From contig JBPOIT010000009.1 of NCBI GenBank assembly GCA_052034235.1, forward strand, positions 136,203-200,202: a stretch of DNA of 64,000 nt, in the 5' to 3' direction. Numbering within the stretch: the first letter of the stretch is position 1; every line of letters begins with the position of its first letter. Below, one piece after another: positions 193 to 16,438 of this stretch. Below the pieces are notes generated by a model, which was not told where the DNA came from, did no database searches, and saw only the letters and a program-made list of their open reading frames with translations. Position numbers and translations under genes: made by a program. The DNA is from Candidatus Levyibacteriota bacterium. GTDB lineage: Bacteria; Patescibacteriota; Microgenomatia; Levybacterales; UBA12049.

Positions 193-633
193 ATGAAAAT
201 CCTTAATAAAAAAGCAGGTTTTGATTATCAATTGCTTGAATCCTTTGAAGCAGGTATTCATCTATTTGGAGCAGAAGTAAAAGCAGCAAGAGCTGGCAAT
301 ATTGATTTGCATGGGAGTTTTGCCAGAATTATCGGTAGTGAGATCTATTTACTTAACGCAAAAATCCTTCCGTATAAATTTGCACGTCCTGAATCTTTTG
401 ATGCCACACGTACACGAAAATTACTTCTGCATAAAAAACAAATCGTCTCTTTAAAGTCAAAAATTATCGGAGCGAATTTGACAATAGTGCCTGTTTCCAT
501 GTATACTAAGGGCAATCTAATCAAGCTCGAGCTAGCCTTGGCGAAGTCTCGAAAAAAGTTTGAAAAGAAAGAGCTTCTTAAGAAGCAGGACCTTGACAGA
601 GAAATAGCAGAATCGTTAAAAGGAAACTACTAA
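193..633 (+). CDS. smpB: SsrA-binding protein SmpB
   Basis: 146 aa; SmpB-like motifs (KKAGFDYQLLESFEAGIHLFGAEVKA...FDATRTRKLLLHKKQI); directly upstream of the tmRNA gene. Confidence 0.9.
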   Translation: MKILNKKAGFDYQLLESFEAGIHLFGAEVKAARAGNIDLHGSFARIIGSEIYLLNAKILPYKFARPESFDATRTRKLLLHKKQIVSLKSKIIGANLTIVPVSMYTKGNLIKLELALAKSRKKFEKKELLKKQDLDREIAESLKGNY

Positions 634-698: not shown

Positions 699-1122
699 GG
701 GGGATGACTTGATTCGACGGGAGAAGTACTTTAAAATTGCAAGCCGACGATGATTCATAGTCGTTAAAAAGGATCAAAAAATAAATGCTAAATCTAGCAT
801 TACAAGCCTAGATGAGAAGCTCGCTAAGCTTCAAGCTCAGTGGGACGCTCTTAATCAAGGCGGCCAACGCGCTTACGCACTCGCTGCTTAAGCCGTAAAG
901 CCAGTTCATACATGTCTTTCCTTATCGGGACAGTAGGGGCTAAAAAACAGGTGAGGAAAACTGTAAAAAGTCAGGTTACGCTTTTTACTGTACACAGTAG
1001 CCTATACTTTGTTATTCCGTCCGACAGGAAACGGCAAAGCGAATTCTAAGAGTCGGATAAGCTTGTAGACGTTTTACATTATCTCTATCCGGACTCCGGT
1101 TCATAACCGGACATCTCCACAC
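699..1122 (+). ncRNA. ssrA: tmRNA (ssrA), not in the ORF track
   Basis: 5' GGGGGATGACTTGATTCGACGGG matches the canonical tmRNA 5' tRNA-like end. 3' T-arm TCCGG-TTCATAA-CCGGA (1094-1110) and acceptor 3' strand CATCTCC (1112-1118) pair with 5' GGGGATG including a G3:U wobble (alanine identity). Internal tag frame ends ...GGQRAYALAA-TAA at 889-891. Confidence 0.85.
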
Positions 1123-2632
1123 TTCCGTTTTTAGCCTGTCCTATTTCGCTAATTAGCTTGACAGGATAGGCTAAAGATGCGGTTCCAAACCCCAAATTAT
1201 AATCGTACCGCAGTTCTTCCTCAAAATACATAAAAAGTATCGCTTTTTTATCGTTGTAGTTATCACTTTTCCACATATCAACAGGCTTTTTTAATGTGTT
1301 AAACACTTTTTCCGAGGCGGTTCCAAACTGTTCTGGGGTGTAACTTTGTTTCAATAAACTCTGCTCTATTTGGTCTTCAGTTTTTACTAATTCTTTAATT
1401 TGTGACTCATACGTACTGATTAATGTCTCATCTTTTGTCTTTCTTGCTCTAGCAGCATACCATTCAATACTCTCCTTTGTTTCTACAAGCTCGGAAGAAA
1501 GTCGTGTTCGATATTCTGTATCCTGCGTCACTCGCTGTTCCCATTGTTCCTGCAATAGGTCCTTAGTTATATCAACATATCCATCTAAAGGCTTTACTCT
1601 CAATAACAACTGTTCAAACTCAGGCTCAATTTTATATTTCCTAACAACCTTCCAACGATAAGGACACTTTTCTGTGCGGCAAAAGTAATTAGGATAATAA
1701 ATACTGCGCCCCTTATTCCAGCTTGCAGTCATAGCCTTACCACAGGCAGCACAAAGCACCCAAGGACGCAAAGGAAAGTCTTTAGAATAATCTTTTCGTT
1801 GCCATGGCTTGGTACGCCCACCCAATCGCTCTTGCACGATCTTGTAGGTCTCAATCGTTATAAACCCCTCATGCTTAGCTTTCATAAGAGGAATGTTCCA
1901 TTTTGGATAAGCAATGTATCCTGCATAGAGGGGATTTTTCAATATCTCTACTGTGGTACTTAATGATGGTCTGTTGGGTAAACCTGCAATCTCATATTGT
2001 TTATGAAGTTCTTGTCTAACTTCCTCCTGAGTAAGCAAAATCCCATCACGATATTTTTCTATTGCATCTTTAAATATAGCTGCATGTGGTTCTACAGGAG
2101 CTAATATCTTCCCATGGAGTGGCTCTCTTTTGTTTTTTAAAGCTGTTGGTGGCATAAAGGACCAATAGCCTCTTTCTAACCTAGCTTTCATTTTTTGAAT
2201 TACTTGCCTTCTATTTTGATTCCTTTCCAGTTGAGCAGTTGCGGCCATTACAGTCTCAACAAATTCTCCTTCGGGTGATTCTTCAAAACGAAAGTTAGGA
2301 CTTTCGACTCTTCCATTTCTTCCATATATCTCACTTTTTAGTTTAAAATGAACCTGTGTATCTCTAGCGAAGCGCTTTAGATCATCAAAGATAACAACAA
2401 CTCTTTCATTGAGATTACCTGAATCATTTTGTTCCAAGCAGACAAGCAACCGCTTCATAGCGGGTCTATCAAATAATCCCCCTGATTTCCCTTCATCTCG
2501 AAAAACATCAATAATCTGATACCCAGCATCTGCTGCATATTTCCTACAACGTTGTTCTTGGCTACCTAAACCATCACCTTCTTTTACTTGTCTTTCAGAA
2601 GACACCCTGCAATAAATAACTGCCTTTGTCAT
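1085..2632 (-). CDS. large serine recombinase/integrase (resolvase catalytic domain, recombinase domain, zinc ribbon)
   Basis: 515 aa; N-terminal IYCRVSSERQ catalytic-serine motif; Cys-rich segment LCAACGKAMT...CRTEKCPYRW; 3' end overlaps the tmRNA 3' end antisense. Confidence 0.9.
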   Translation of the reverse strand: MTKAVIYCRVSSERQVKEGDGLGSQEQRCRKYAADAGYQIIDVFRDEGKSGGLFDRPAMKRLLVCLEQNDSGNLNERVVVIFDDLKRFARDTQVHFKLKSEIYGRNGRVESPNFRFEESPEGEFVETVMAATAQLERNQNRRQVIQKMKARLERGYWSFMPPTALKNKREPLHGKILAPVEPHAAIFKDAIEKYRDGILLTQEEVRQELHKQYEIAGLPNRPSLSTTVEILKNPLYAGYIAYPKWNIPLMKAKHEGFITIETYKIVQERLGGRTKPWQRKDYSKDFPLRPWVLCAACGKAMTASWNKGRSIYYPNYFCRTEKCPYRWKVVRKYKIEPEFEQLLLRVKPLDGYVDITKDLLQEQWEQRVTQDTEYRTRLSSELVETKESIEWYAARARKTKDETLISTYESQIKELVKTEDQIEQSLLKQSYTPEQFGTASEKVFNTLKKPVDMWKSDNYNDKKAILFMYFEEELRYDYNLGFGTASLAYPVKLISEIGQAKNGSVEMSGYEPESG

Positions 2633-2790
2633 AAGGTCTTTTCTCCTTCGTGGATGGCTGAATCAATAGCTCTATTACAGAGAGTTCGAAGTGTATTAAG
2701 TAGGTTATTTAGCTCTTCATCCGTCATCTTTTCTGCTCTTTTGCCTAACTTTTGGCGAGCATATTCAATTGTGATTGTATTCTTAGTCAT
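2629..2790 (-). CDS. small 53-aa ORF translationally coupled to the integrase; possible Xis/RDF-like or regulatory protein
   Basis: Minus-strand ORF MTKNTITIEYARQKLGKRAEKMTDEELNNLLNTLRTLCNRAIDSAIHEGEKTL; its TGA stop overlaps the integrase ATG (ATGA); below the ORF-track size cutoff. Confidence 0.35.
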   Translation of the reverse strand: MTKNTITIEYARQKLGKRAEKMTDEELNNLLNTLRTLCNRAIDSAIHEGEKTL

Positions 2791-2874
2791 AGCCAGCAAT
2801 TGCAGTGAGTGCTGGCATTTCCAAGAGTATTCCTCTAAAGCCCTAGTCTACGTGTAGCTAGATTTCACAATTAA

Positions 2875-3180
2875 TTATTTTCCTAAAATTTCATTCTCTA
2901 AGAACTCTGCAAGTTCTTTTTTATTTACAATTTCTTCATTGATTTTCCACCTAAGTCTTCCGTCCTGATCTCTTCCTGCTGGAACAATAATAGGTTCATC
3001 AGGAAACTTCATTCTTCTTAATGTACTGATTTGTCCTTTCAGTTCCGACTCTGCTGTACTGGTAGAATCCGAAATCTCATTTAATTCCAAAGCAACTGCA
3101 CCAGTTACTGCCAACGTGTGAAGAAAGGAGAGGAGGTCTATTCTAAGATGTCGTAATTTATCTTTAGTCTGTTTATCCAT
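2875..3180 (-). CDS. hypothetical protein (island cargo)
   Basis: 101-aa ORF with no recognisable motif. Confidence 0.4.
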   Translation of the reverse strand: MDKQTKDKLRHLRIDLLSFLHTLAVTGAVALELNEISDSTSTAESELKGQISTLRRMKFPDEPIIVPAGRDQDGRLRWKINEEIVNKKELAEFLENEILGK

Positions 3181-3340
3181 GCACGTATTCTACAATAACA
3201 GACATATCGCGTCAAGTCGTAATCTATCGTAACCTATTGTAGGAATTAGTTTTCTAAAGCGGCTTTTTTGTTGCGTAAACTGATCTCTTTTTAGTTATGT
3301 TAGCTACAAATTTGTCTTTAGTTTCTGCAACAAATTGAAC

Positions 3341-3904
3341 CTAGGCGTTGCCTTCAGGCCTAGCAGTTGCAGGAAATGTTCTTGGTAAGTCATGGGGCAA
3401 GCCTACTCTCATGAACTGCTTGGCAAAGGCTTGTGCTAAATGCTCTCTGTAAGGAGGAAGTAATCTTACTCTCGTACCATAGGATCCCTTGAAAACTTTT
3501 AAGAATGAATAAGGAACTGTATATATCTGCTTGAGAACTACTCTTTGATAATTAAAACTGTGCCAACGATGCTGATGTTGATTAATAATTCTTGAAGCTA
3601 CAATTTCTTCTTTAACCATTGGCTCCCAGTCGCTTTCGGACATCTTTCCCCCCTGAATTTGTTCTGGAATATCAAACATAGGACATAAAACAACTGTCCC
3701 ATCGGTTCGGTTCATCTTTAACAAATCACATGATTGGGATAAAACGATGACACTTGCTGATTCTTCATCTATTGTGACGGTTTCGCCAGTCTGCGCATCA
3801 TTCGTATACCGCGGAACATATATTGGAAAGTTAAAGAAAATGTCTCCCTGCTCTAGTTGGGTATCTGCTCGTACAACTTTATACCATGGATATGTGTTTG
3901 GCAT
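3341..3904 (-). CDS. hypothetical protein, third gene of the three-gene operon
   Basis: 187 aa; 2-nt gap from the upstream gene; no recognisable family. Confidence 0.55.
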   Translation of the reverse strand: MPNTYPWYKVVRADTQLEQGDIFFNFPIYVPRYTNDAQTGETVTIDEESASVIVLSQSCDLLKMNRTDGTVVLCPMFDIPEQIQGGKMSESDWEPMVKEEIVASRIINQHQHRWHSFNYQRVVLKQIYTVPYSFLKVFKGSYGTRVRLLPPYREHLAQAFAKQFMRVGLPHDLPRTFPATARPEGNA

Positions 3905-3906
3905 TT

Positions 3907-4440
3907 TTAGTCTCCATATTCTCTGTCCTCATCTTTAACAGCAAGTGCGCCAAGTTTACCAGATTTGTTGATTCTTATACCCGACCTTACCTTAGTAAGT
4001 TTTATATATGTCATCGCATCAATTTCATAATCTTCATATAGGCGTTTTTGAGGAGTAGCAACAGGATAATCAAATGCTTTTGCAAGAGTAATATATGTGT
4101 CAAACGCGAATGGAGTAGGAGATGCTATTGTCGTAACCATTGCATAACTTCCAGCATTTCCTTCCCATTCGACCCATCCTCTTTGACGAGCTTCTGTTAC
4201 AGGTAAAGATGCAGTATGTTCGTAAGCGGTTTGTGCATCGTCAGACAAGCCAATGAGAATACTACCTCCAGAATACTGCATATGTCCCAATGGATTAACA
4301 ATCGGTGCCGTGGCTGCAAAATCAGTATGATCTTGAGAATAGGGCTGAGCATGAACAGAAGACAAACTAGAACCGATATTCTCCTTACTTGCCAAATGCT
4401 CCATATATAATTTACTGTAATCTCGATAGTCTGCTAACAT
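3907..4440 (-). CDS. hypothetical protein, second gene of the three-gene operon
   Basis: 177 aa; 2-nt gaps on both sides. Confidence 0.55.
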   Translation of the reverse strand: MLADYRDYSKLYMEHLASKENIGSSLSSVHAQPYSQDHTDFAATAPIVNPLGHMQYSGGSILIGLSDDAQTAYEHTASLPVTEARQRGWVEWEGNAGSYAMVTTIASPTPFAFDTYITLAKAFDYPVATPQKRLYEDYEIDAMTYIKLTKVRSGIRINKSGKLGALAVKDEDREYGD

Positions 4441-4442
4441 AT

Positions 4443-5246
4443 TTATTTATCGTGTTCTGCTAATGATGAAAACCACTTTTTAGCGACACCATGAGAATTG
4501 TCCAACCACTTCTTAAAAGCATCTTCATCGTAGTAGTCTGGACATTCATTGTTATTTGAAACTATTTCATTATCAAATACAATGTGCTTGATCTCTTTTT
4601 CAATCCCTTTATTGTCTTTCTCTTTCTTATATCCTGTTGCAACCCTAAGTATACCTTGTGCTTTCGGTGTTTCTAATTTAAAAACGGTCGAGAAGTTGAT
4701 ATCTTGTACAGGAGTTGTTGTTGCATCATCCGATGGAATTCCTATTGGTAGCTGGACATGATAATTTAGCTTATCTTTTAATAAAGCAAATAAATCTTCT
4801 TTCTCATCAAATAGAATTGCATTTCTGTATCGGAGTGAGATAGCTTCTGGCTTTAATTTTGTACTTTCATATGCTTTTATGAGCTTTTTTCTCAGGAATA
4901 AAGCATTGTCTAGAAATGACTTCCAGTCGTAGTTCTCCGTATAGTTTAATGTTGAGACACCAGGTCCAAGTTGAACTAAAGGCCATCCATTAATCCCTCC
5001 CGTTCTAAATTGATAGCGTGGTATAAATGGCAGGAGTTCCAACGGGGCATCGTTTTCTTTTGTAGGAACAGCCGAACTAAATCTGTCTTTAACTCCTTCT
5101 GCGAACATTCCCAAAGCAATAGGGAAAGTTACATCCTTTTGGAATGCAGGGTTTTGACTACTTTTTTCTAGCTGCCAACGTATGGATAACCATGCTTCTT
5201 GTAAGGGACTTTTTTCATCTTTTGTAGAAGACTTTTTCATATTCAT
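4443..5246 (-). CDS. hypothetical protein, first gene of the three-gene operon
   Basis: 267 aa; sigma70-like promoter immediately upstream. Confidence 0.55.
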   Translation of the reverse strand: MNMKKSSTKDEKSPLQEAWLSIRWQLEKSSQNPAFQKDVTFPIALGMFAEGVKDRFSSAVPTKENDAPLELLPFIPRYQFRTGGINGWPLVQLGPGVSTLNYTENYDWKSFLDNALFLRKKLIKAYESTKLKPEAISLRYRNAILFDEKEDLFALLKDKLNYHVQLPIGIPSDDATTTPVQDINFSTVFKLETPKAQGILRVATGYKKEKDNKGIEKEIKHIVFDNEIVSNNNECPDYYDEDAFKKWLDNSHGVAKKWFSSLAEHDK

Positions 5247-5262
5247 GTTAGTTTACAAATGT

Positions 5263-5291
5263 ATTATACAGGGAATTGTGATTTATTCCAA
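5263..5291 (-). promoter_or_regulatory. sigma70-like promoter for the 4443-5246 operon (-35 TTGGAA, 17-nt spacer, extended -10 TGTATAAT)
   Basis: Minus strand reads TTGGAAtaaatcacaattcccTGTATAAT, ending about 16 nt before the ATG; short leader with no SD. Confidence 0.4.
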
Positions 5292-5428
5292 GCCTAGCTT
5301 TACTTAACAAAACATTAAGTTGTCTTTCAAATACTCTTTTTCGGCACATGACTAATTATTCGTTTTGCCAATAATGATGAGCCAAATCGCATTGTGGGGC
5401 TTTAGAAGTGATAGTGACAACAGTCTAT

Positions 5429-6079
5429 TTAGAAGCCGTAGGAATCAACATCTTCAAACTTATCAGTGATAACACCATTGCCAGTCTTCACAATTTCATT
5501 CCCTTTCCTAACGGTGTAGGTAAACTTTGTTATGCCACTTGCCCCATGGACACTTGTTGGACCAGTATTCGCATCCATATTTACTGATGTTCCTAGCTCT
5601 GGTTCAATGGCTTTGGTTGTACTGAAAGCATCTCCAGCGATAGGGTTCTTTAGCTCACTGGTAAAAAGAGCAATGGATACGCTGCCTTCAAAGGGTTTGG
5701 TATCTTTATTCCTGATGTCAAAGAAGTATCTGTATTTGCCATCAACTTTCTTCACAATTTGACTGGTAACAACGATATTATACTTCTCAACAGGCTTAGG
5801 TGTGTTTGTTGGAGCTGCTGCATTCATACCATCTTGAAATGATTTAGCTGCAGAGTTTTGTTGACTTCCTGTGGTGGTAGCTTTATTGTCATTACTTGAT
5901 CCCACGATAAGAACAAATCCCCAAAGTGCAGCAATGACAACAAGACGTACTACCTTATTCCATTTTTGTCTCCAAATCAGACGAGTGAGATAGCCCATCA
6001 AGAAAAGCGGAAAGGACAGGACAATCAACAGAATGCCCCATTTGGTTTTATACCATTTCTTTTTCATTTCAGTACTCAT
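5429..6079 (-). CDS. membrane-anchored protein with an extracytoplasmic domain
   Basis: 216 aa; N-terminal TM helix (WGILLIVLSFPLFLMGYL and VVIAALWGFVLIV), then a Ser/Thr-rich linker and a beta-rich domain. Confidence 0.5.
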   Translation of the reverse strand: MSTEMKKKWYKTKWGILLIVLSFPLFLMGYLTRLIWRQKWNKVVRLVVIAALWGFVLIVGSSNDNKATTTGSQQNSAAKSFQDGMNAAAPTNTPKPVEKYNIVVTSQIVKKVDGKYRYFFDIRNKDTKPFEGSVSIALFTSELKNPIAGDAFSTTKAIEPELGTSVNMDANTGPTSVHGASGITKFTYTVRKGNEIVKTGNGVITDKFEDVDSYGF

Positions 6080-6144
6080 ACTCTACAGTATACCACAATA
6101 CTAGTGCAGTGTCAAAAAGAGCAGGTTGGTGTGTAATAATACCC

Positions 6145-6411
6145 ATGAATCCAAAAAATCTCGCTAACGAGAATACACCAGAAAATAGAAGAAAGGAAAA
6201 GCGTGAATTTGCTGTAGCAATTGGTAAGCATCTACGCAAGATTAGAGAAGCAAGGAATATAAGCCAAGAGCAGCTCTCTGTGAAAGCTGGATATTACCAT
6301 ACCTATGTCAATAAAATTGAGCAAGGCAAGTACTCTCCAAGTATGCACACAATATGGAGACTCTCTCATACCTTGGGGTTATCTCTGGACGATTTTTTCA
6401 GCGAGTTTTAA
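6145..6411 (+). CDS. XRE-family helix-turn-helix transcriptional regulator
   Basis: HTH_XRE signature IGKHLRKIREARNISQEQLSVKAGYYHTYVNKIEQGKYSPSMHTIWRLSHTLGLSLDDFF; internal ATG at 6145 preferred over the ORF-track start 6109; divergent from the membrane protein gene. Confidence 0.75.
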   Translation: MNPKNLANENTPENRRKEKREFAVAIGKHLRKIREARNISQEQLSVKAGYYHTYVNKIEQGKYSPSMHTIWRLSHTLGLSLDDFFSEF

Positions 6412-6487
6412 AATTGTAAGATCTTCCAATTTTCATTTTTTATCCTTAAGTCTAATAAAACCTATGGTATAAAGCCCAAACGGAGTA

Positions 6488-7276
6488 CTATTTTGGTTTT
6501 GGAATCTCTTGTGTTGCTTTAGGAGAAACAATTGATTTTCGAAAGTCCTGCAGACTTTTTTCAGCAGCTTTTATTGCCTCTTCATGTTCTTCCATTTCCT
6601 CTTTTGAATATTCTTTTGCTACCCAATCGCTTCCATTTTTCACCAAGGACATCATTTGAATGGGATCAGAAACGCCTCCAGGACTTACAGAAATAGCATG
6701 ACGTAACGTCCAAAAAGTAGCAAAGATTGCCTCATTGATATTTGGTGGACAATCACCATCCCAAAAGACTCTCCTAATAAGTCCCAAAAAGGGGTCAGCG
6801 ATAGCTTGTCCACTCCCAATACTTGCAAAAGGTAGGTCATCATTAGTTTCCTCTGGTGATCCTTGATGATCAAATTGAAACAAAGAGGATTTATGTTTTA
6901 TAGGAAGAGCTACAAGTGTGGAACATAAAGCGCTCTGTGTTGCCACGCCATTGCCCAATACCGGGGCAGAAATACGAGCTGTTTCCAGTTCAGGTAAAAT
7001 ATGATTTCTAAACTTTTGACTTATAATAGTCATTGCTTCAAAAGGAACTTTGCCAGATAAGCCTCCTGCTTGATAGAGTTTATCCATTTCACCCTTTAAT
7101 CTTTGACCCAAACCTACTGGGCCGGATACACCAACGATAATTTGATCTTGCAAAATCGAAAGTTTTTTTGTAGGCTGCATTGCGGTAGGTGTACCAAGCG
7201 CACCGAAAGTAGCAGCACCATCTGCGCCCATCACGATACTACCATCTTTACATTTTATTCCAATAATAAGAGTCAT
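6488..7276 (-). CDS. HslV/proteasome-beta family Ntn-hydrolase homolog with an ~80-aa C-terminal extension
   Basis: 262 aa; N-terminus MTLIIGIKCKDGSIVMGADGAATFG...KKLSIL...IIVGVSGPVGLG and later FASIGSGQ align with HslV [23 protein letters not shown]...KKVRRL...VIAGFAGGTADA...IAIGSGG; 8-nt gap to the upstream Panacea-like gene. Confidence 0.65.
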   Translation of the reverse strand: MTLIIGIKCKDGSIVMGADGAATFGALGTPTAMQPTKKLSILQDQIIVGVSGPVGLGQRLKGEMDKLYQAGGLSGKVPFEAMTIISQKFRNHILPELETARISAPVLGNGVATQSALCSTLVALPIKHKSSLFQFDHQGSPEETNDDLPFASIGSGQAIADPFLGLIRRVFWDGDCPPNINEAIFATFWTLRHAISVSPGGVSDPIQMMSLVKNGSDWVAKEYSKEEMEEHEEAIKAAEKSLQDFRKSIVSPKATQEIPKPK

Positions 7277-7284
7277 TCTGCCTA

Positions 7285-7758
7285 TTAATCCCTAAATACA
7301 CTATTTTTTTTGTATTCGGGGAATTCTTTATAAACTGAGGAGACAAGCTCCTGAAAAGATAAGGGAAGCATCCAATCAATCAACTGCTTTAAATATTTAG
7401 TTGCTTCCTCTGTCACCTGTTCGTGTAATTCTTTAGCTCGTTTCTTGCCGCTGCTTGTTATGTTGTATTTACGTCCAGCACTTTGGGCGGAATGAGTCTC
7501 GACATATCCTTCCTTTTTCAAAAGGTCTGCATCGTGGTATATCCCTATATCAAAAGGGCCATAATTATACGCAACAAAATGGTAGAAATCTTTGGTCTCT
7601 TTGGGCATGGCATGATGCAATAAAAATAAGGACTTTTGGAGTTTTACTGGTGTAAGGCCAGTTTTATCTGCTTCCGCAATAACTAATAAGGTCCAGTCTT
7701 TTCTCTCAATATTCATTGGGACAATTGTATCATATACGGATAACTGCCACCGGTGCAA
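7285..7758 (-). CDS. Panacea (DUF4065, PanA/SocA-like) domain protein
   Basis: 157 aa; GLTPVKLQKSLFLLHH ... FVAYNYGPFDIGIYHD resembles Panacea-domain consensus (KLQKLLYF...W.YGPV.P.VY). Confidence 0.55.
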   Translation of the reverse strand: MHRWQLSVYDTIVPMNIERKDWTLLVIAEADKTGLTPVKLQKSLFLLHHAMPKETKDFYHFVAYNYGPFDIGIYHDADLLKKEGYVETHSAQSAGRKYNITSSGKKRAKELHEQVTEEATKYLKQLIDWMLPLSFQELVSSVYKEFPEYKKNSVFRD

Positions 7759-7837
7759 CAGGGAACGAGTACATGTACTGTATGCAAATAAATGTGTAGT
7801 GCCAAAAATTACTGACTGCAGTGAAAACTTTCTGGCA

Positions 7838-8206
7838 CTACAAAAATCTTCTTATTACTTCTTTTCTGCTTTGACATTCAAGTAAGCAAGTTTTATCTCG
7901 CTCAATTATTTTATTCATCTTTGTCGTTATATTATTAACCGTATCGTAAGCCGAGATCATAGTAAAGGGGTGCTTACCAGTTTTTAAAAAATCATCCAGT
8001 CTTTTTTCATCTCTTGAAAGCGCTGCTAATAATGCTGCTGCTTCTCGTTCAGTAAATGCGAAAAGCTCAGGAACAGTTTTACATCTACCCAATTTTAGCA
8101 ATGTTTTCCTCTTTATTTTATTATCTTTGCGATAATTTGCTACAAGGTAATATAACAACCTTTCTCGTTCATGAAAAATTGATTTTTTTGTAATGATAAA
8201 TGCCAT
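7838..8206 (-). CDS. hypothetical protein
   Basis: 122-aa ORF, first gene of the minus-strand trio 8206->6488. Confidence 0.4.
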   Translation of the reverse strand: MAFIITKKSIFHERERLLYYLVANYRKDNKIKRKTLLKLGRCKTVPELFAFTEREAAALLAALSRDEKRLDDFLKTGKHPFTMISAYDTVNNITTKMNKIIERDKTCLLECQSRKEVIRRFL

Positions 8207-8363
8207 ACTATTATATTTATTTCTCTATATACCTTGTTCTATTACTTACATGTGATACTTTCTCAAGCAAATTGCCTGGATTGGAAGCTAAAATTACGTT
8301 CACTGAGGATTGGATACCATTTAAAGACATAGTCTTCAATTCGTCTCCAACTTATTTCGCCTA

Positions 8364-8404
8364 TGTCCACCAATAAAGCCGCAGTAATGCGGCTTTTTTT
8401 GTGG
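8364..8404 (+). repeat. hairpin-containing ~40-nt repeat, copy 1 (orphan terminator-like: AAAGCCGCA-GTAA-TGCGGCTTT followed by a 7-nt T-run)
   Basis: tgtccaccaataaagccgcagtaatgcggctttttttgtgg; no co-directional gene ends here; near-identical copy at 11033-11075. Confidence 0.5.
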
Positions 8405-8448
8405 ATTAGCAATACTTTACAATCAAACTGACAAAAACAAAGAGTCAC

Positions 8449-8496: not shown

Positions 8497-9534
8497 ATGG
8501 ATACGAAAAGTAAAATTCTTGAGATAGCATCAAAGGAAACAAAATTTAAAACGTCAGATGTTGTGAAATCGTTGCGTGGAAATGTATCAAGACAATTTAT
8601 AAGCTACGAGATAAATAATCTAGTAAAACAGGGCATACTTGTAAAAGGTGGTTCTACTAAAAACTCATTTTATACGTTACCCTCAAATGCAATTGTTCTT
8701 GGAACTAAATTTCATAAACGGTTAACGAATAAAGATCTCAAGGAACATGAGGTATTTGATAAATTGCAGCATCAAACTACTTTCATTGAAAATTTAAGAG
8801 AAAATGTATATAGCATTCTTGCATATGCATTCTCTGAGATGCTGAACAATGCGATAGAACACTCAGAATCAAAATATATTGAAGTCTCTGTCGAAAAAAT
8901 ACAAGATAATTTTGTTTTTGTTGTAGATGATTTTGGAATTGGAGTTTTTAGAAATGTGATGAATAAAAGAAAACTTAATTCTGAAATTGAAGCAATACAA
9001 GATCTTCTAAAAGGTAAAACAACAACACAACCACAAGCGCATTCAGGAGAAGGGATATTCTTTACGTCAAAAGCTGCAGATGTATTTATATTGGAAAGCT
9101 TTGGATACAGATTGAGAATAGATAATGTAATAAACGACATCTTTCTAGAAGAATTAAAACCATCAAAACAAGGAACTAGAGTTACTTTTACCATTTCGAT
9201 AAACTCAAAAAGACATCTAAATAAGATTTTTAAGGACTATCAAACTGATCCTGAAGAAATGGCTTTTGATAAAACAGAAGTCAAAGTGAGACTTTACACA
9301 ATGGGAACAATTTATATTTCGCGCTCTCAAGCTAGAAGAGTATTAACAGACTTAGAAAAATTTCGATCAGTTATTCTTGACTTCGATAAAGTTCCGACCA
9401 TTGGACAAGCATTTGCAGATGAAATTTTTAGAGTATTTCAGACAAAACATCCAGAAATAACAATAAAGCCAATCAATATGAATGATGCAGTTTCTTTTAT
9501 GATAGGTCGTGTAGAAAAACTAAACTCTGATTAG
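8497..9534 (+). CDS. wHTH - GHKL (HATPase_c-like) ATPase - STAS-like (DUF4325-like) three-domain protein
   Basis: 345 aa; Bergerat-fold motifs N-box EMLNNAIEH, G1 DDFGIG, G2 SGEGIFF; C-terminal RRVLTDLEKFRSVILDFDKVPTIGQAFADEIF resembles a STAS/anti-sigma-antagonist fold. Confidence 0.55.
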   Translation: MDTKSKILEIASKETKFKTSDVVKSLRGNVSRQFISYEINNLVKQGILVKGGSTKNSFYTLPSNAIVLGTKFHKRLTNKDLKEHEVFDKLQHQTTFIENLRENVYSILAYAFSEMLNNAIEHSESKYIEVSVEKIQDNFVFVVDDFGIGVFRNVMNKRKLNSEIEAIQDLLKGKTTTQPQAHSGEGIFFTSKAADVFILESFGYRLRIDNVINDIFLEELKPSKQGTRVTFTISINSKRHLNKIFKDYQTDPEEMAFDKTEVKVRLYTMGTIYISRSQARRVLTDLEKFRSVILDFDKVPTIGQAFADEIFRVFQTKHPEITIKPINMNDAVSFMIGRVEKLNSD

Positions 9535-9795
9535 AATCTGCTTCGTCGTTTATCCCAGTTACTTAATGAGGTATACCATGAGAATAAATTATGCCTTGAC
9601 TGCAAAAGTAGAAACCACTTCCAATTATAATCTTAATTCTTGTTCCAACTTATATCTAAAGTGTCCACAAGTTTAAAATCCTGTTACAATTAGCGTTTTT
9701 ATTATTAATAATCATTTTCTAAAAATGCGAAATACCCGTTTAGCTACGTTATTAACTAAGCTTAAGATTATTAATTAAATTTTTCTTTTTTCTCT

Positions 9796-10887
9796 TCACC
9801 GCGGTTTATATTTTAACTTTTGCACTGGATTATCAATAAGCAGAAGTAGCATAATTGATGCAATAACCGTTACAATAATAATCGTCAAACTAAAAAGAGG
9901 ATTTTGCATAGCAAAATTAAGGTAATAAGTATTATAAATCTGGATTACAAATATATGTGTTATATACATTGGATAGGATAAACGGCCCACAAAATTATCC
10001 ACCTTGCTCAATTTTGTAAGCTTAAAAATAAATGGAATAGATACTACTAGGAGAATATATAACAGTATACGAAATGGATTATAGGTGTATAAATCTATTC
10101 CTGGAATTTGTGAATAGAAGACAATACTAAAAACGAGGGTTGCAAACAGAATCCATGGAATTTTTGACGGTACATGTTTCAATCGTATATACCTATACAG
10201 TAAATATGAATAATGCCCAGCGAGGAAAAAACAAATTTCAGCTGGGAAGAAACGATAAGGCCACGGTTCAAAAGTTAAACCTATTACATAGAGAAAACAT
10301 TTTATAAAAAGACTTAGTGAAAAAACAGTGAGAATAAATTTCCATCCGCGTTTAAAGATAAACGGAGCAATCACATAAAAACTTAACTCTATTCCAAGGG
10401 TCCAAGCCTGTGGAACAAAAAGAAAACTTTCCAGCCAGATTTTTGTCGTAGTATATTGCTGCGTAAAAAACAGTAATCCGGTATGAGTATTTAAACTCAT
10501 AAAAAAGAGCATGTCTTGACCAAAAAGAAATAAATTTGTAAATATAAAATAAAGTAAGGTCAAAGGATTCATATAAGGTATATATGTAATATAGGCAATG
10601 AAATGATTATCTAAATGTGCAAAATGCCAAAATAATGAGGTTATAAATACCATCAGAAGTACTGTCCAGTACATCGGATACAATCGCAAGAATCTGTTTT
10701 TCAGAAAGTGTATATAGGTCTTCTGGCCTTTATTATATTTTTCATGCAAGACTAGAGACATATAAAACCCAGAAAGGATAAAAAATGATTCGACAGCAGT
10801 CATACCTCCTACTAATTTAACACCAAAAATTGGCAATGTATGTCCAACTATTACAGCCACTGCAAGCAAAAAACGTATTAATCCCAT
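9796..10887 (-). CDS. acyltransferase family 3 (OafA/YrhL-like) membrane O-acyltransferase
   Basis: Multi-TM protein with FFILSGF motif; the ORF-track start 11031 probably over-extends, internal start MGLIRFLLAVAVIVGH at 10887 preferred. Confidence 0.7.
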   Translation of the reverse strand: MGLIRFLLAVAVIVGHTLPIFGVKLVGGMTAVESFFILSGFYMSLVLHEKYNKGQKTYIHFLKNRFLRLYPMYWTVLLMVFITSLFWHFAHLDNHFIAYITYIPYMNPLTLLYFIFTNLFLFGQDMLFFMSLNTHTGLLFFTQQYTTTKIWLESFLFVPQAWTLGIELSFYVIAPFIFKRGWKFILTVFSLSLFIKCFLYVIGLTFEPWPYRFFPAEICFFLAGHYSYLLYRYIRLKHVPSKIPWILFATLVFSIVFYSQIPGIDLYTYNPFRILLYILLVVSIPFIFKLTKLSKVDNFVGRLSYPMYITHIFVIQIYNTYYLNFAMQNPLFSLTIIIVTVIASIMLLLLIDNPVQKLKYKPR

Positions 10888-11032
10888 GTGAATTGAGTTT
10901 AGCAGACGAATATAGCGTATGTATATCGGAATGCCAATCGGCACCGTAACACTGATCGTATATGGTTGTTCACGAGCATCGGAAAAAATACCATATACAT
11001 CCTTTCCAATATATTTCAGATTTGTCCACATA

Positions 11033-11075
11033 ATTAAGCCGCAGTAATGCAGCTTTTTTATTGGTATAATAGATT
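11033..11075 (+). repeat. hairpin-containing ~40-nt repeat, copy 2 (tgtccacataattaagccgcagtaatgcagcttttttattgg)
   Basis: About 38 of 42 nt identical to 8364-8404, same orientation, one stem mismatch. Confidence 0.5.
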
Positions 11076-11087
11076 GCGGGTGGCTTC

Positions 11088-12608
11088 ATGACTCCAAAAA
11101 AAATCTTTCTGCTTCTTATTCCTTTTATATATCTTCTTTTTCTGCTTTTAAAAGTTGATCCGAGTTTCGATGTGGATTTGGGGAGGCATATTAAAATGGG
11201 CCAGATTATTAGTGAGTGTGGTTGTGTTCCTGATCAAAATTTATTTTCGTTTACACACCCGGAATATAAAACGGTAACACATTCATGGCTAAGTGAAGTG
11301 ATTTTTTTCCAATTTGCATCTCTCTTTGGGATTACAAGTTTACTTTATTTGAAGGCAGGAATTATAGTTATTACCTTTGGGATAGTTTATATGTTTTCTG
11401 TAAAGAAAGAAGCGTTTCTTACCTCCGTTTTATTTAGTCTACTTACAGTTGCGATTTTTGCAACAAGATTTACCGTTAGACCTGAACTCTTTAGTTATCT
11501 TTTTATTGCGCTTTTCCTGCTCATTTTCGAACTCTATAAAAGAAGGCATAAAATGATATTTTTATGGCTTTTGCCGTTTATAACTGTGCTTTGGGTTAAT
11601 ATGCATATTTATTTTTTTCTGGCATTCTTGCTGTTTGCATCTTTCTTGGTTGAAGATATAATCACAAACAAAAAATTTAATAAGGCATTTATTCCGCTTT
11701 CTCTTGTTATGTTATGTGCGCCATTTATTAATCCAGCTTTTGTTGCAGGAGCGTTCTATCCGCTGCATATCTTTAATAATTACGGGGCGCCAATAATTGA
11801 GAATTACCCGGCTGCAAGACTACTTACTTTTTATACTCCTTTGTCACCACAATTTATAACGATTCTTATTTTTGAAGTGATTAGTTGTTTTGCATTGGCA
11901 GGAGTACTTTTATATCCAAGAAAAAAAATGATAGCAGTAAAAGTGAATACAACAGTCGGAATTTTACTGGGGCAACTATTAATTCGTTGTATGGCCCTTT
12001 TTTCACTCCTTGGCTTACCGTTCGTTATAAAAGAATATATTTATCTTGAAAAGCATGTGACAAAGTCTGCGAAAAAAAAATTCGCCATAGTTCTCAATGG
12101 CGTATTGTTGATAAGTTTTATCATCCTTTTTGTTACGCAGATAAAACAAATCATCATGTATGAACAATTACATTTTGGTTTTCAAATGTCTCAAGAAAGA
12201 GCGGTTAATTTCTTTTCGAAAAATAATCTACAGGGAAATATTTTTAACAATCCATCAGTCGGAAATTATTTAGTTTATCGTCTTTATCCAAATCAAAAAG
12301 TATTTATTGATAGTAGACCGGAAGCGTATCCCTCAATTATTTTTGACGAATATTTCAAAATGCTGCAAGATAAAAATTATTTTAATGAGCAGGCCGAAAA
12401 GTATAACATCAATGTGATATTTTTTAGTCCGATAGAATATCCACAATTTTCAAGGACATTTCTAGCAAATATAATAGATGATTCTCATTGGGCACCGGTT
12501 TATTGGGATGGAAATGTTATGATTTTTGTTAAGAATACAAAGGAAAACGAAATCATTATTAAAGAGAATAGCCAATTGAGAACTATGCTACTCAGAACAC
12601 TACATTAA
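11088..12608 (+). CDS. polytopic membrane protein, GT-C-like glycosyltransferase (tandem paralog 1 of 3)
   Basis: 506 aa, >10 TM; shared motifs DLGRH, SWLSEV, WVNMHIYF and C-terminal QGNIFNN...VFIDSRPEAYP with 12644 and 14915. Confidence 0.6.
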   Translation: MTPKKIFLLLIPFIYLLFLLLKVDPSFDVDLGRHIKMGQIISECGCVPDQNLFSFTHPEYKTVTHSWLSEVIFFQFASLFGITSLLYLKAGIIVITFGIVYMFSVKKEAFLTSVLFSLLTVAIFATRFTVRPELFSYLFIALFLLIFELYKRRHKMIFLWLLPFITVLWVNMHIYFFLAFLLFASFLVEDIITNKKFNKAFIPLSLVMLCAPFINPAFVAGAFYPLHIFNNYGAPIIENYPAARLLTFYTPLSPQFITILIFEVISCFALAGVLLYPRKKMIAVKVNTTVGILLGQLLIRCMALFSLLGLPFVIKEYIYLEKHVTKSAKKKFAIVLNGVLLISFIILFVTQIKQIIMYEQLHFGFQMSQERAVNFFSKNNLQGNIFNNPSVGNYLVYRLYPNQKVFIDSRPEAYPSIIFDEYFKMLQDKNYFNEQAEKYNINVIFFSPIEYPQFSRTFLANIIDDSHWAPVYWDGNVMIFVKNTKENEIIIKENSQLRTMLLRTLH

Positions 12609-12643
12609 AAAGTATTACTGCTCTCGTGTATAATTATTTATAG

Positions 12644-14047: not shown

Positions 14048-14050
14048 CTC

Positions 14051-16426: not shown

Positions 16427-16438
16427 CATATTCTAACT

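What the first reader, a model, noticed from the sequence alone, without database searches (positions are those of the whole stretch)
1085..2790. Large serine integrase overlaps the tmRNA 3' end antisense, marking an insertion at ssrA
The 515-aa serine recombinase (IYCRVSSERQ catalytic motif plus zinc ribbon) ends at 1085 on the minus strand, while the tmRNA T-arm and acceptor 3' strand occupy 1094-1119. The integrase C-terminal codons are therefore antisense to the tmRNA 3' end. tRNA and tmRNA 3' ends are classic integration hot spots, but they are usually hit by tyrosine integrases. A serine integrase fused this tightly to ssrA is unusual and suggests the element rebuilt or replaced the ssrA 3' end. 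A 53-aa ORF (2629-2790) is translationally coupled to the integrase start through an ATGA overlap. It could be a directionality factor or a regulator.
Basis: partly seen in the sequence, partly recalled or inferred. Interest (0 to 1): 0.75.

Follow-up and report, generated by a model that had tools for sequence, protein, structure and literature searches.

The report
Serine-integrase mobile element inserted at ssrA
A 7.25-kb mobile element sits at the very end of the tmRNA gene of a CPR (Patescibacteria) bacterium, and because its attachment site lies inside its own serine-integrase gene, insertion swaps the enzyme's conserved C-terminal helix for a short peptide encoded by the opposite strand of the tmRNA gene.

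Summary
A full-length tmRNA gene (700-1122, +) and a 515-aa large serine integrase gene (1085-2632, -) overlap tail-to-tail by 38 nt.

Nine contigs from near-isogenic strains lack the insertion. They define a 7,250-bp element (about 1121-8370) that crossed over in a 5-nt core, TCCAC. This core is U70-C74 of the tmRNA acceptor end.

The element did not rebuild ssrA. Only the last two encoded nucleotides of CCA and the terminator were displaced.

attP lies inside int. The prophage enzyme ends in 10 host-encoded residues (EMSGYEPESG). The excised form would be 539 aa and end in a 34-aa tail encoded at the element's far end.

That tail is conserved at codon level. It is present on five circular 4-11 kb contigs and as remnants at the far end of about 20 integrated relatives. 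AlphaFold predicts it as an amphipathic helix.

Of the 120 closest homologs, 103 carry a tmRNA-antisense tail. Relatives in Proteobacteria use tRNA genes.

A 53-aa ORF is a conserved partner of int. Its function is unknown.

The closest precedent is the Dehalococcoides ssrA islands (dsiB overlaps attL, 2011). I rate this a new variant of a known kind. Whether the tail swap has any function is inferred, not shown.

The parts
193..633 (+). smpB, a host core gene directly upstream of ssrA
   Evidence: Pfam SmpB, 3.1e-43. The identical protein is found on 14 contigs, occupied and empty.
700..1122 (+). ssrA (tmRNA gene). Positions 700-1120 are host DNA. Positions 1121-1122 (AC) are element DNA replacing the native CA of CCA.
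   Evidence: Rfam RF00023, 109 bits, full length. Positions 1-1120 are 100% identical to the empty-site strains. Junction alignment.
1116..1120 (+). attL crossover core TCCAC (tmRNA U70-C71-C72, discriminator A73, C74)
   Evidence: This is the only block shared by attB, attL and attR. The same GTGGA core is found in all 17 reconstructed attP sites.
1085..1120 (-). Host-encoded 3' end of the prophage-form int: codons for (V)EMSGYEPESG plus the stop, read antisense through the tmRNA T-arm and acceptor
   Evidence: Translation. 103 of the 120 closest homologs end with the same VEM/VET antisense signature.
1121..2632 (-). Element-encoded body of the large serine integrase (residues 1-504): catalytic domain, recombinase domain, zinc ribbon with embedded coiled coil
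   Evidence: Pfam. PHROG integrase, 7e-60. Invariant S12 and C294/C297/C318/C323. The AF2 model of a homolog matches full-length SPbeta-type, Bxb1 and phiC31 integrases.
2629..2790 (-). 53-aa ORF with an ATGA overlap onto the int start; a conserved partner of int, function unknown (candidate directionality factor or regulator)
   Evidence: Homologs sit directly upstream of int in at least 17 loci, including the circular forms. No Pfam or PDB match.
2875..8206 (.). Cargo and regulation genes:
- 101-aa ORF, 2875-3180 (-)
- 187-aa ORF, 3341-3904 (-)
- 177-aa ORF, 3907-4440 (-)
- TIGR04255-family protein, 4443-5246 (-)
- 216-aa ORF, 5429-6079 (-)
- XRE-type HTH, 6109-6411 (+)
- HslV/proteasome-like peptidase, 6488-7276 (-)
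- SocA/PDC-M19A-like protein, 7285-7758 (-)
- 122-aa ORF, 7838-8206 (-)

No phage structural, replication or conjugation genes were recognised.
   Evidence: The whole block is absent from the empty-site strains.
8263..8370 (-). Detached 3' end of int: the core plus the 34-aa tail VDIGEISWRRIEDYVFKWYPILSERNFSFQSRQFA and its stop. It is joined in frame to int only in the excised circle. It includes the attP-arm motif TTGGAGAC at 8350-8343.
   Evidence: Reconstruction of the 539-aa form. The tail HMM scores 1.6e-18 here. Homologous tails are seen on circular contigs and at the attR ends of relatives.
8366..8370 (+). attR crossover core TCCAC
8371..8404 (+). Displaced native ssrA 3' flank: CA of CCA plus the intrinsic terminator AATAAAGCCGCAGTAATGCGGCTTTTTTT
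   Evidence: It directly follows TCCAC in all nine empty sites.
9590..9668 (-). Fossil attR: core (TCCAC at 9664-9668, + strand) with a decayed, frameshifted tail remnant (VDTLDISWNKN* / DYNWKWFLLLQ)
   Evidence: Tail HMM fragments; sequence. Also present in the empty-site strains.
11025..11064 (+). Second fossil attR: TCCAC preceded by a P-arm-like sequence and followed by an 88% copy of the ssrA terminator
   Evidence: (family D4).

Best explanation
**What is shown**

- Window ~1121-8370 is a 7,250-bp integrative element in a Levybacteria-like Patescibacteria (CPR) genome.
- It was inserted by its own large serine integrase into the extreme 3' end of ssrA.
- The crossover fell within the 5-nt core TCCAC (tmRNA U70-C74, the alanine-identity acceptor end plus discriminator and first C of CCA). 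This core is shared by attB and attP.
- The mature tmRNA sequence stays host-encoded. Only the encoded ...CA and the terminator are displaced.
- attP lies inside the 3' coding region of int, so int exists in two isoforms:
  - The free circular element encodes a 539-aa enzyme. Its last ~34 residues contain a conserved, codon-constrained amphipathic helix (SW..IE.YI.KWYP.L).
  - After integration that tail is left at the far end of the element (8263-8370). The prophage int instead reads antisense into the tmRNA T-arm and acceptor, ending in EMSGYEPESG (515 aa).
- The tmRNA T-arm half of attB is the conserved arm. Its TTGAACC motif lies ~4-5 bp closer to the core than the similar TTGGAACC motif in attP. 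This is the known zinc-ribbon-domain offset rule of large serine integrases.
- The architecture is family-wide: tmRNA targets in CPR, tRNA targets elsewhere.

**What is inferred**

- Integration is carried out by the long (helix-bearing) isoform, and excision by the short isoform. Free circles exist in relatives although prophages encode only the short form.
- The tail swap, possibly with the conserved 53-aa partner protein and with convergent transcription from ssrA into int, therefore helps set the directionality or level of recombination.
- The tmRNA 3' end is completed by the CCA-adding enzyme after integration.
For: **Mobility and junctions**
- Nine empty-site and three occupied contigs give identical junctions.
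- The flanks are 1120/1120 and 99.95% identical.

**tmRNA and integrase identity**
-.

**Two isoforms**
- Reconstruction of both forms.

**Family-wide signature**
- Of the 120 closest homologs, 103 have VEM/VET tails, 7 have attP-form tails and 3 have tRNA-type tails.
- Of 80 genome loci, 21 have a tmRNA (12 by ARAGORN, 9 by Rfam) and 26 have a tRNA overlapping the int stop antisense.

**Free circular forms**
- L014 has a 127-nt terminal overlap, and the contig breaks exactly at the core.
- L015 has a 26-nt overlap and L109 a 55-nt overlap.
- L110 and L111, from two different samples, are exact circular permutations of one 4,639-bp unit.

**Tail remnants**
- About 20 integrated relatives carry a tail remnant at the far end. 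It is always on the int strand and always starts at GTGGA.

**Codon-level selection on the tail**
- For codons 10-22, pairwise identity at codon positions 1/2/3 is 0.56/0.67/0.42.
- Many synonymous codons are used at the conserved Y, I/V, R/K, P and L residues.
- Codons 3-9 show a DNA-level signature instead: TGGAAC is invariant.

**Structure**
- AF2 predicts the tail as helix 509-528 after a disordered linker at 498-510.

**att-site consensus and motif offset**
-, compared with Rutherford 2013 (PMC3783163).

**Partner protein**
- The 53-aa ORF is conserved next to int.
Against: - No experiment or read-level data show excision or integration of this particular element. Its exact 539-aa excised isoform is not in the 15-billion-protein collection.
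- The functional role of the tail is inferred from conservation only. AF2 confidence for the helix is moderate (pLDDT 64-75), and its docking site is unknown.
- The prophage-form tail varies in length among relatives (the stop falls wherever the tmRNA antisense frame provides one). This fits an accidental, function-neutral replacement.
- The left (non-tmRNA) half of attB is not conserved among hosts, and attP is not obviously palindromic. Site recognition therefore departs from the textbook symmetric model in ways I cannot explain.
- No terminator-like structure follows ssrA in the integrated state. The effect on tmRNA maturation is unknown.
- How the element moves between cells is unknown.
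Confidence: 0.8

Rival explanations
1. The element and the overlap are real, but the C-terminal swap has no regulatory meaning. attP sits at the 3' end of int only for compactness. The tail is a dispensable or merely stabilising appendage, and directionality is controlled as in other serine integrases, by the coiled coil plus a separate directionality factor (perhaps the 53-aa protein).
For: - All folded domains end before residue ~495, and the linker is disordered.
- Prophage-form tails vary in length and sequence.
- McMurdie 2011 considered the same trivial reading for dsiB.
- The first 9 tail codons are constrained as DNA, not as protein.
- A conserved small partner ORF exists that could be a conventional RDF.
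Against: - Codons 10-22 of the tail lie beyond the expected 25-bp attP half-site, yet they show a clear coding-type constraint and a heptad-like hydrophobic pattern. This holds across elements whose integrases are only ~45-65% identical.
- The tail remnant is still intact in most integrated copies.
Confidence: 0.35
2. One reading: the element carries its own copy of the ssrA 3' end and rebuilt or replaced it on insertion, as tyrosine-integrase islands do. On this reading the T-arm and acceptor at 1094-1119 are element DNA.
For: This is the rule for tyrosine-integrase t(m)RNA islands (Hudson 2015). In a few relatives (for example P0015 and L031) attP matches attB for a few more bases (GTGGAGATG).
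Against: - The sequence up to 1120 is 100% identical to the empty allele, and divergence starts right after TCCAC.
- No second copy of the ssrA 3' end exists in the window, even allowing 2-3 mismatches.
- The far-end junction has an unrelated sequence left of the core.
Confidence: 0.02
3. The recombinase is a domesticated, non-mobile neighbour of ssrA, or the small circles are plasmids that use it as a resolvase. On this reading the ssrA association is synteny, not integration.
For: - The arrangement recurs in many genomes.
- The circles carry no recognised transfer genes.
Against: - There is presence/absence polymorphism between near-identical strains, with base-precise junctions.
- Cargo differs completely between elements: R-M system, TIR + trypsin-like, S49-type protease, and the HslV-like + SocA-like pair here.
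- The integrated copies have the split tail at their far end, exactly as attP x attB recombination predicts.
- Targets switch between tmRNA and tRNA genes.
Confidence: 0.02

Closest known systems
Dehalococcoides ssrA-specific genomic islands with the CcrB-like serine recombinase DsiB (McMurdie et al. 2011, PMC3146451)
   Same: - Small integrative, apparently mobilisable islands at ssrA, driven by a large serine recombinase.
- The int gene always overlaps attL at its 3' end and runs antisense into ssrA.
- Tandem arrays occur, including integrase-less relics.
- The authors already speculated that the enzyme may be complete only on the circular form.
   Different: - The crossover there is in the T-loop and leaves a 20-bp direct repeat. 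Here it lies at U70-C74 with only a 5-nt shared core.
- There a second, small serine recombinase (DsiA) and a parB/mom/tRNA-like module accompany the integrase. Here the partner is a 53-aa non-recombinase protein.
- The host phylum differs (Chloroflexota versus Patescibacteria).
- No circular form or alternative tail was available there. Here both are seen, and the tail is conserved.
- Orthology between this integrase and DsiB was not tested.
Phage large serine integrases (A118/LI, Bxb1, phiC31, SPbeta)
   Same: - Same domain set and fold.
- Short att sites with a minimal shared core.
- The ZD-type motif lies ~5 bp further out in attP than in attB.
- A separate small protein is encoded next to int.
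   Different: - Those enzymes have attP outside int and one protein isoform. Their targets are usually protein-coding genes or intergenic sites.
- Here attP is inside int, the C-terminus depends on integration state, the target is a tmRNA or tRNA gene, and only one attB arm is conserved.
Tyrosine-integrase islands in tRNA/tmRNA genes (Williams 2002/2003; Islander)
   Same: - Same class of target, and the same logic of using an invariant RNA gene end while keeping the gene functional.
- The int gene lies next to the RNA gene.
   Different: - An unrelated enzyme family is used.
- Those islands carry a replacement gene fragment that leaves a detectable direct repeat, which this element lacks.
Integration-dependent immunity of mycobacteriophages (attP inside the repressor gene) and SSV-type integrases split by integration.
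   Same: attP lies inside a coding gene, so integration changes the C-terminus or the integrity of the encoded protein and so couples protein form to integration state.
   Different: - Those are tyrosine-recombinase systems.
- The gene affected is the repressor (removal of a degradation tag) or int is split in two.
- Here a serine integrase keeps all its domains and only exchanges its C-terminal helix. No ssrA-like degradation tag is evident in either tail.

Membership tests
Large serine recombinase / serine integrase | N-terminal resolvase-type catalytic domain with the nucleophilic serine and conserved Arg/Gln/Asp residues | tested here: met
   PF00239, 1.7e-23 over residues 4-156. R9, S11, S12, Q15, R56, D83, R87 and R90 are invariant in 33 family members.
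Large serine recombinase / serine integrase | C-terminal recombinase domain plus a zinc-ribbon domain with an embedded coiled coil | tested here: met
   - PF07508 scores 23.4 bits (cut-off 21.1).
- PF13408 scores 24.5 bits, just under its 25.3 cut-off.
- Four Cys residues are invariant.
- AF2 predicts long helices at 350-427.
- Foldseek gives full-length matches to SPbeta-type, Bxb1 and phiC31 integrases and to 4kis (E 3e-16 to 3e-10).
Large serine recombinase / serine integrase | Short att sites sharing only a small central identity, with no long direct repeat flanking the element | tested here: met
   A 5-nt TCCAC core is the only shared block. No longer repeat of the ssrA end was found.
Large serine recombinase / serine integrase | The outer (ZD) recognition motif lies ~5 bp further from the centre in attP than in attB | tested here: inconclusive
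   - TTGAACC lies at +12-18 in attB. TTGGAACC lies at +16-23 in attP, on the tmRNA-side arm. This is consistent with PMC3783163.
- It is seen on one arm only.
- The central dinucleotide is not determined.
Large serine recombinase / serine integrase | Catalyses attP x attB recombination; excision needs a directionality factor | not testable with these tools
   Only the genomic footprints are available: empty sites, occupied sites, and circular forms in relatives.
Dehalococcoides-type ssrA-GI (DsiB/DsiA module) | Integration at ssrA, with the integrase gene overlapping attL antisense | tested here: met
   described in PMC3146451.
Dehalococcoides-type ssrA-GI (DsiB/DsiA module) | [quoted passage not shown] | tested here: not met
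   The crossover is at U70-C74 and only 5 nt are shared.
Dehalococcoides-type ssrA-GI (DsiB/DsiA module) | A second, small serine recombinase (DsiA) is co-transcribed, together with parB/mom/pseudo-tRNA module genes | tested here: not met
   There is no second Resolvase-domain protein in the element and no tRNA-like gene in the window. The upstream partner is a 53-aa protein without known domains.
Dehalococcoides-type ssrA-GI (DsiB/DsiA module) | Orthology of the integrase to DsiB/CcrB | not tested
Tyrosine-integrase t(m)RNA genomic island (Islander type) | A tyrosine recombinase, plus a displaced target-gene fragment marking the far end | tested here: not met
   The integrase is a serine recombinase. 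There is no tDNA fragment at the far end beyond the 5-nt core.

The most novel reading that the evidence does not exclude
The recombination reaction itself rewrites the recombinase. The free element makes a helix-bearing integrase specialised for integration. Integration removes that helix, which may dock on the coiled-coil/zinc-ribbon region that governs directionality. The result is a prophage isoform that is permissive for excision, alone or with the 53-aa partner. Directionality would then be encoded in the topology of the int gene rather than, or in addition to, a separate directionality factor. This would hold across a large clade that uses the universally conserved alanine-type acceptor end (TCCAC) of tmRNA and tRNA-Ala as its landing site.
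Probability: 0.25. Interest if true: 0.85.

Novelty: new variant of a known kind. Interest (0 to 1): 0.68.

Why it matters
**For integrase biology**
- As late as 2015-2020, serine integrases were said not to use tRNA/tmRNA genes. The few computational cases found were flagged as needing proof.
- This locus has base-precise empty and occupied alleles. It also opens onto a clade of more than 2,000 proteins, in CPR bacteria and in cultured Proteobacteria, that does exactly this.
- It turns a 2011 speculation about Dehalococcoides dsiB ('only fully functional on the circle?') into a concrete, testable statement. There is a conserved alternative C-terminal helix that only the circular form encodes.
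- If the two isoforms differ in activity, this would be a new, self-contained way of controlling serine-integrase directionality.

**For applications**
- These enzymes recognise a ~25-bp site in an essential, near-universal RNA gene without inactivating it.
- That makes them attractive for genome engineering, including in CPR bacteria, for which genetic tools are scarce.

**For annotation**
- Integrase C-termini in this family are routinely mis-stated, because the annotated end is host DNA.
- ARAGORN misses the adjacent tmRNA genes.

Tried and rejected
- **ARAGORN on the window** found no tmRNA or tRNA. Rfam was needed.
- **Search for a displaced copy of the ssrA 3' end** (30-mer with 3 mismatches, 14-mer with 2 mismatches) found only the original. 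In hindsight this is expected for a serine integrase.
- **Generic repeat search** gave mostly chance pairs. It did flag the duplicated terminator (D4) and a palindrome inside int.
- **PADLOC, PHROGs, Pfam and NCBIfam on the cargo** gave weak or no hits for most genes. No named defence system could be assigned.
- **Pfam and PDB sequence searches with the 53-aa family** gave nothing credible.
- **IMG/VR scan** returned only 12 distant relatives (30-39% identity). The CPR elements are therefore not recognisable phages.
- **Terminator scan** found no replacement terminator after ssrA in the integrated state.
- **Exact look-up of the reconstructed 539-aa isoform** showed it is not in the collection.
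- **Cluster look-ups** gave no organism names. The host was placed through SecY relatives instead.
- **attP palindromic symmetry** was looked for by eye in the reconstructed sites and their consensus, and none was evident. A scripted symmetry scan crashed before running and was not repeated.
- **An ssrA-like degradation tag** on either tail was considered and rejected. The tail ends are not conserved and are not LAA-like.
Full report
**1. The observation**

The window starts with smpB (193-633, +; Pfam SmpB 3e-43). A complete tmRNA gene follows at 700-1122 (+; Rfam RF00023, 109 bits, model 1-374). ARAGORN does not call it, presumably because the T-loop is TTCATAA.

On the opposite strand a 515-aa ORF runs from 2632 to 1085.
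- It matches Pfam Resolvase (1.7e-23) and Recombinase (23.4 bits). It matches Zn_ribbon_recom at 24.5 bits, just under the 25.3 cut-off.
- It matches the PHROG integrase family at 7e-60.
- The catalytic serine and four zinc-binding cysteines are invariant across the family.
- An AlphaFold model of a close homolog aligns over its full length with solved SPbeta-type, Bxb1 and phiC31 integrases.

The two genes overlap tail-to-tail by 38 nt. The 53-aa ORF (2629-2790) overlaps the int start through ATGA.

**2. It is a mobile element, mapped to the base**

The identical SmpB protein occurs on 14 contigs. Nine of them (L003-L007, L009-L012) have smpB and ssrA followed directly by the gene that lies at 8497-9534 in the window. 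Three contigs (L001/L008, L002) are occupied like the window.

The alignment gives these junctions:
- attB: ...CATCTCCAC|CAATAAAGCCGCAGTAATGCGGCTTTTTTT
- attL: ...CATCTCCAC|ACTTCCGTTTTTAGCC
- attR: ...TTATTTCGCCTATGTCCAC|CAATAAAGCC

The only shared block is TCCAC (1116-1120 and 8366-8370), so the element is 7,250 bp. The flanks of empty and occupied strains are 1120/1120 and 99.95% identical.

TCCAC corresponds to tmRNA positions U70-C71-C72, discriminator A73 and C74. The T-arm and acceptor strand are therefore host DNA. Only the last two encoded nucleotides of CCA, and the intrinsic terminator, were displaced to 8371-8404. The element did not rebuild ssrA, and no longer ssrA fragment exists at the far end. 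A 5-nt identity with no long repeat is what a serine integrase leaves.

SecY relatives place the host among Patescibacteria, near Levybacteria (74-76% identity).

**3. attP lies inside int, so the enzyme has two forms**

Because the core lies 12 codons before the stop, the last residues of the prophage enzyme (V-EMSGYEPESG*) are read from the antisense strand of the tmRNA T-arm and acceptor.

Joining 8370 to 1121, as in the excised circle, extends the frame to 539 aa. That form ends ...NGSV-DIGEISWRRIEDYVFKWYPILSERNFSFQSRQFA*. The apparent 61-aa ORF at 8263-8448 (-) is this detached tail fused to host DNA.

**4. The arrangement is family-wide**

A protein search returned more than 2,000 relatives at E <= 1e-20. 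The named ones come from Patescibacteria, Levybacteria and Saccharimonadales.

Tail classes among the best 120:
- 103 end in VEM/VET followed by a G.EP-type motif. This is the translation of the reverse complement of CATCTCCAC plus a T-arm.
- 3 have a tRNA-type antisense tail.
- 7 are truncated or other.
- 7 (P0015, P0037, P0054, P0063, P0066, P0090, P0105) end in V(D/E)....SWN.IE.YI.(K/R)WYP.L. This is the same kind of tail as predicted for the excised form of the window's element.

In 80 loci from named genomes:
- ARAGORN places a tmRNA antisense across the int stop in 12. Rfam adds 9 of 9 tested loci that ARAGORN had missed (85-118 bits).
- ARAGORN places a tRNA there in 26: Ala 18, Met 2, Arg 2, Leu 2, Tyr 1, Thr 1.
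- The tmRNA users are CPR lineages: Saccharibacteria, Roizman-, Gottesman-, Levy-, Ames-, Taylor-, Adler- and Peribacteria, and Paceibacterota.
- The tRNA users are mostly Alpha- and Gammaproteobacteria at 37-40% identity. They include cultured strains (Roseovarius marisflavi, Stappia indica, Rhodovulum bhavnagarense, Nitratireductor aquibiodomus).
- tRNA-Ala and tmRNA share the U70-C74 sequence. That plausibly explains switching between these two targets (inference).

**5. Free circular forms exist**

Contigs carrying attP-form integrases are small, and five of the six are circular:
- L014: 10,950 nt with a 127-nt terminal overlap. The contig breaks exactly at the GTGGA core.
- L015: 7,539 nt with a 26-nt overlap.
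- L109: 4,224 nt with a 55-nt overlap.
- L110 and L111: from two different samples, 30-nt overlaps, exact circular permutations of one 4,639-bp unit.
- L108: a linear fragment.

Their cargo differs completely: an R-M system with Vsr, TIR + trypsin-like proteins, an S49-type protease. None has recognisable phage, replication or conjugation genes.

**6. The tail is conserved as a protein, and it is split off as predicted**

An HMM built from 12 tails finds a remnant in about 20 further integrated CPR loci. The remnant is always on the int strand, always upstream at the far end of the element, and always begins exactly at GTGGA with unrelated host DNA before it. The implied element sizes are 3.3-10.3 kb.

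In 20 tail DNA sequences:
- Codons 10-22 (28-66 nt from the core, beyond a 25-bp half-site) have pairwise identity of 0.56/0.67/0.42 at codon positions 1/2/3. Conserved Tyr, Ile/Val, Arg/Lys, Pro and Leu residues use many synonymous codons. This is a coding-type constraint.
- Codons 3-9 show no such periodicity (0.60/0.51/0.52). They contain an invariant TGGAAC in which Asn is always AAC. This is a DNA-level constraint.

AlphaFold (mean pLDDT 85.8) predicts the tail as a helix at 509-528 (pLDDT 64-75). It follows a disordered linker at 498-510 that coincides with the core and attP-arm codons. By eye, the hydrophobic residues follow a 3-4-3-4 spacing (W, I, I, W, L).

**7. att-site logic**

Seventeen attP and fifteen attB sites were reconstructed.
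- All contain GTGGA.
- The conserved attB arm is the tmRNA T-arm read antisense, with ttGAaCC at +12 to +18.
- attP has TTGGAACC at +16 to +23, which is 4-5 bp further out.
- Rutherford et al. 2013 showed that the zinc-ribbon-domain motif occupies bp 16-24 in attP and is shifted 5 bp towards the centre in attB (PMC3783163). The match is good for this arm.
- The other attB arm (downstream of ssrA) is not conserved between hosts, and attP is not visibly palindromic. This remains unexplained.

**8. The 53-aa ORF**

Homologs lie directly upstream of int in at least 17 loci, including both circular forms examined for it (L014, L015). The consensus is ITI..AR..LG.....MTDKQI...L..LY.LC.K.ID. There is no Pfam or PDB match. 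It is a conserved partner of int. A role as directionality factor or regulator is plausible but untested.

**9. Cargo**

- XRE-type HTH (6109-6411, +)
- HslV/proteasome-like peptidase (6488-7276)
- a SocA/PDC-M19A-like protein (7285-7758)
- a TIGR04255-family protein (4443-5246)
- five ORFs without matches

Sources. The content resembles toxin-antitoxin or defence cargo, but no named system could be assigned.

**10. Mechanism proposed**

Shown:
- site-specific insertion at U70-C74 of ssrA by a large serine integrase
- attP inside int
- two isoforms
- free circles in relatives
- a codon-constrained tail

Inferred:
- The long isoform, made only from the circle, performs integration.
- The short isoform, the only one a prophage can make, performs excision, possibly with the 53-aa protein.
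- Strong convergent ssrA transcription, now without its terminator, may dampen int expression.
- The CCA-adding enzyme completes the tmRNA. Some relatives' native ssrA genes also lack an encoded CCA (for example the L019 flank).

I put about 0.25 on the tail swap being a true directionality switch. I put about 0.35 on it being a functionally neutral consequence of a compact int-attP module.

**11. Comparison with what is known**

- Hudson et al. [quoted passage not shown]
- Mageeney et al. 2020 found 14 of 297 S-Int islands at t(m)RNA genes, called this previously unreported, and asked for experimental proof. They also noted a 'promiscuous' S-Int clade in Alpha- and Betaproteobacteria. This may correspond to the tRNA-hopping relatives seen here (inference).
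- The closest precedent is McMurdie et al. 2011. [quoted passage not shown] The authors wondered whether it is fully functional only on the circle.
- The present element differs in four ways:
  - The crossover position is U70-C74 with a 5-nt core, rather than the T-loop with a 20-bp repeat.
  - There is no DsiA.
  - The host phylum differs.
  - The circular form and a conserved alternative tail are actually seen.
- Literature searches for CPR-specific descriptions, or for serine integrases with attP inside int, found nothing further. The library is not exhaustive.

**12. Verdict**

It is wrong on one point, because the tmRNA end is native and it is the integrase end that is borrowed.

The finding is a new variant of a known kind. 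It opens onto a large, barely described clade, and it gives a testable idea about integration-state-dependent integrase isoforms.

Noticed in passing
window 9590-9668 and 11025-11064: Two fossil attR-like sites lie downstream of the live element. (i) TCCAC at 9664-9668 has a frameshifted tail remnant (VDTLDISWNKN*/DYNWKWFLLLQ) that includes the GTGGAC...TTGGAAC arm. (ii) TCCAC at 11025-11029 is preceded by a P-arm-like sequence and followed by an 88% copy of the ssrA terminator. They bracket two low-GC (0.31) single-gene segments, HATPase_c/DUF4325 (8497-9534) and Acyl_transf_3 (9796-11031). Both segments are also present in the 'empty' strains. They look like integrase-less relics of earlier insertions at the same site.
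   Followed up: partly
window 1130-1175: A 46-nt near-perfect palindrome (TTTAGCCTGTCCTATTTCGCTAATTAGC / GCTAATTAGCTTGACAGGATAGGCTAAA; 28-nt arms, 82% complementary) lies inside the int 3' coding region, 10-55 nt from the crossover core. It is on the P' arm side and includes the CTAAT motif conserved in attP. It could be an RNA hairpin ending ssrA read-through or the int mRNA, or part of site recognition.
   Followed up: no
window 787-891: Read by eye, the tmRNA tag reading frame is unusually long: 34 codons, AKSSITSLDEKLAKLQAQWDALNQGGQRAYALAA*. Rfam shows a ~69-nt insertion in this region. ARAGORN predicts similarly long tags (13-30 aa) for the CPR relatives.
   Followed up: no
window 700-1122; L016, L018-L020, L022-L024, L026, L028: ARAGORN fails to detect the tmRNA genes of this clade (the window plus 9 of 9 relatives tested), although Rfam scores them at 85-118 bits. 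Here the T-loop reads TTCATAA instead of TTCGAAT. ssrA is therefore likely under-annotated in these genomes.
   Followed up: partly
L020:465-572 and L022:9404-9518: Rfam LOOT RNA motif (RF03000, 66-72 bits) lies in the 10-kb flank on the int side of two related loci. In L022 it lies inside the mapped element. In L020 the element's far end was not mapped.
   Followed up: no
L026:6429 and L026:7432; L036:4931 and L036:5784: Some relatives carry two tail remnants in tandem about 1 kb apart. This suggests arrays or nested remnants of elements at the same ssrA or tRNA site.
   Followed up: no
L041-L095 (for example L054 Roseovarius marisflavi DSM 29327, L051 Rhodovulum bhavnagarense DSM 24766, L057 Stappia indica, L075 Nitratireductor aquibiodomus): Relatives at 37-40% identity in cultured Alpha- and Gammaproteobacteria overlap tRNA-Ala, -Met, -Arg, -Leu or -Thr genes antisense in the same way. 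A few sit on IMG/VR viral contigs (L096 at tRNA-Ala, L105 at tRNA-Ser). These are experimentally tractable members. They may be the 'promiscuous' S-Int clade noted by Mageeney et al. 2020.
   Followed up: partly
window 11031-16430: A further low-GC stretch (0.326, against 0.388 for the rest of the window) encodes large unannotated membrane-type ORFs and an EamA transporter. It ends at the UvrD-like helicase gene. It may be another horizontally acquired, cell-envelope-related block. No att-like relic was found in it.
   Followed up: no
window 6488-7758: An HslV/proteasome-like peptidase gene is immediately followed by a SocA/Panacea-like (PDC-M19A, DUF4145-type hits) gene inside the element. 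This may be a toxin-antitoxin-like or defence pair. It is not matched by any named PADLOC system.
   Followed up: partly
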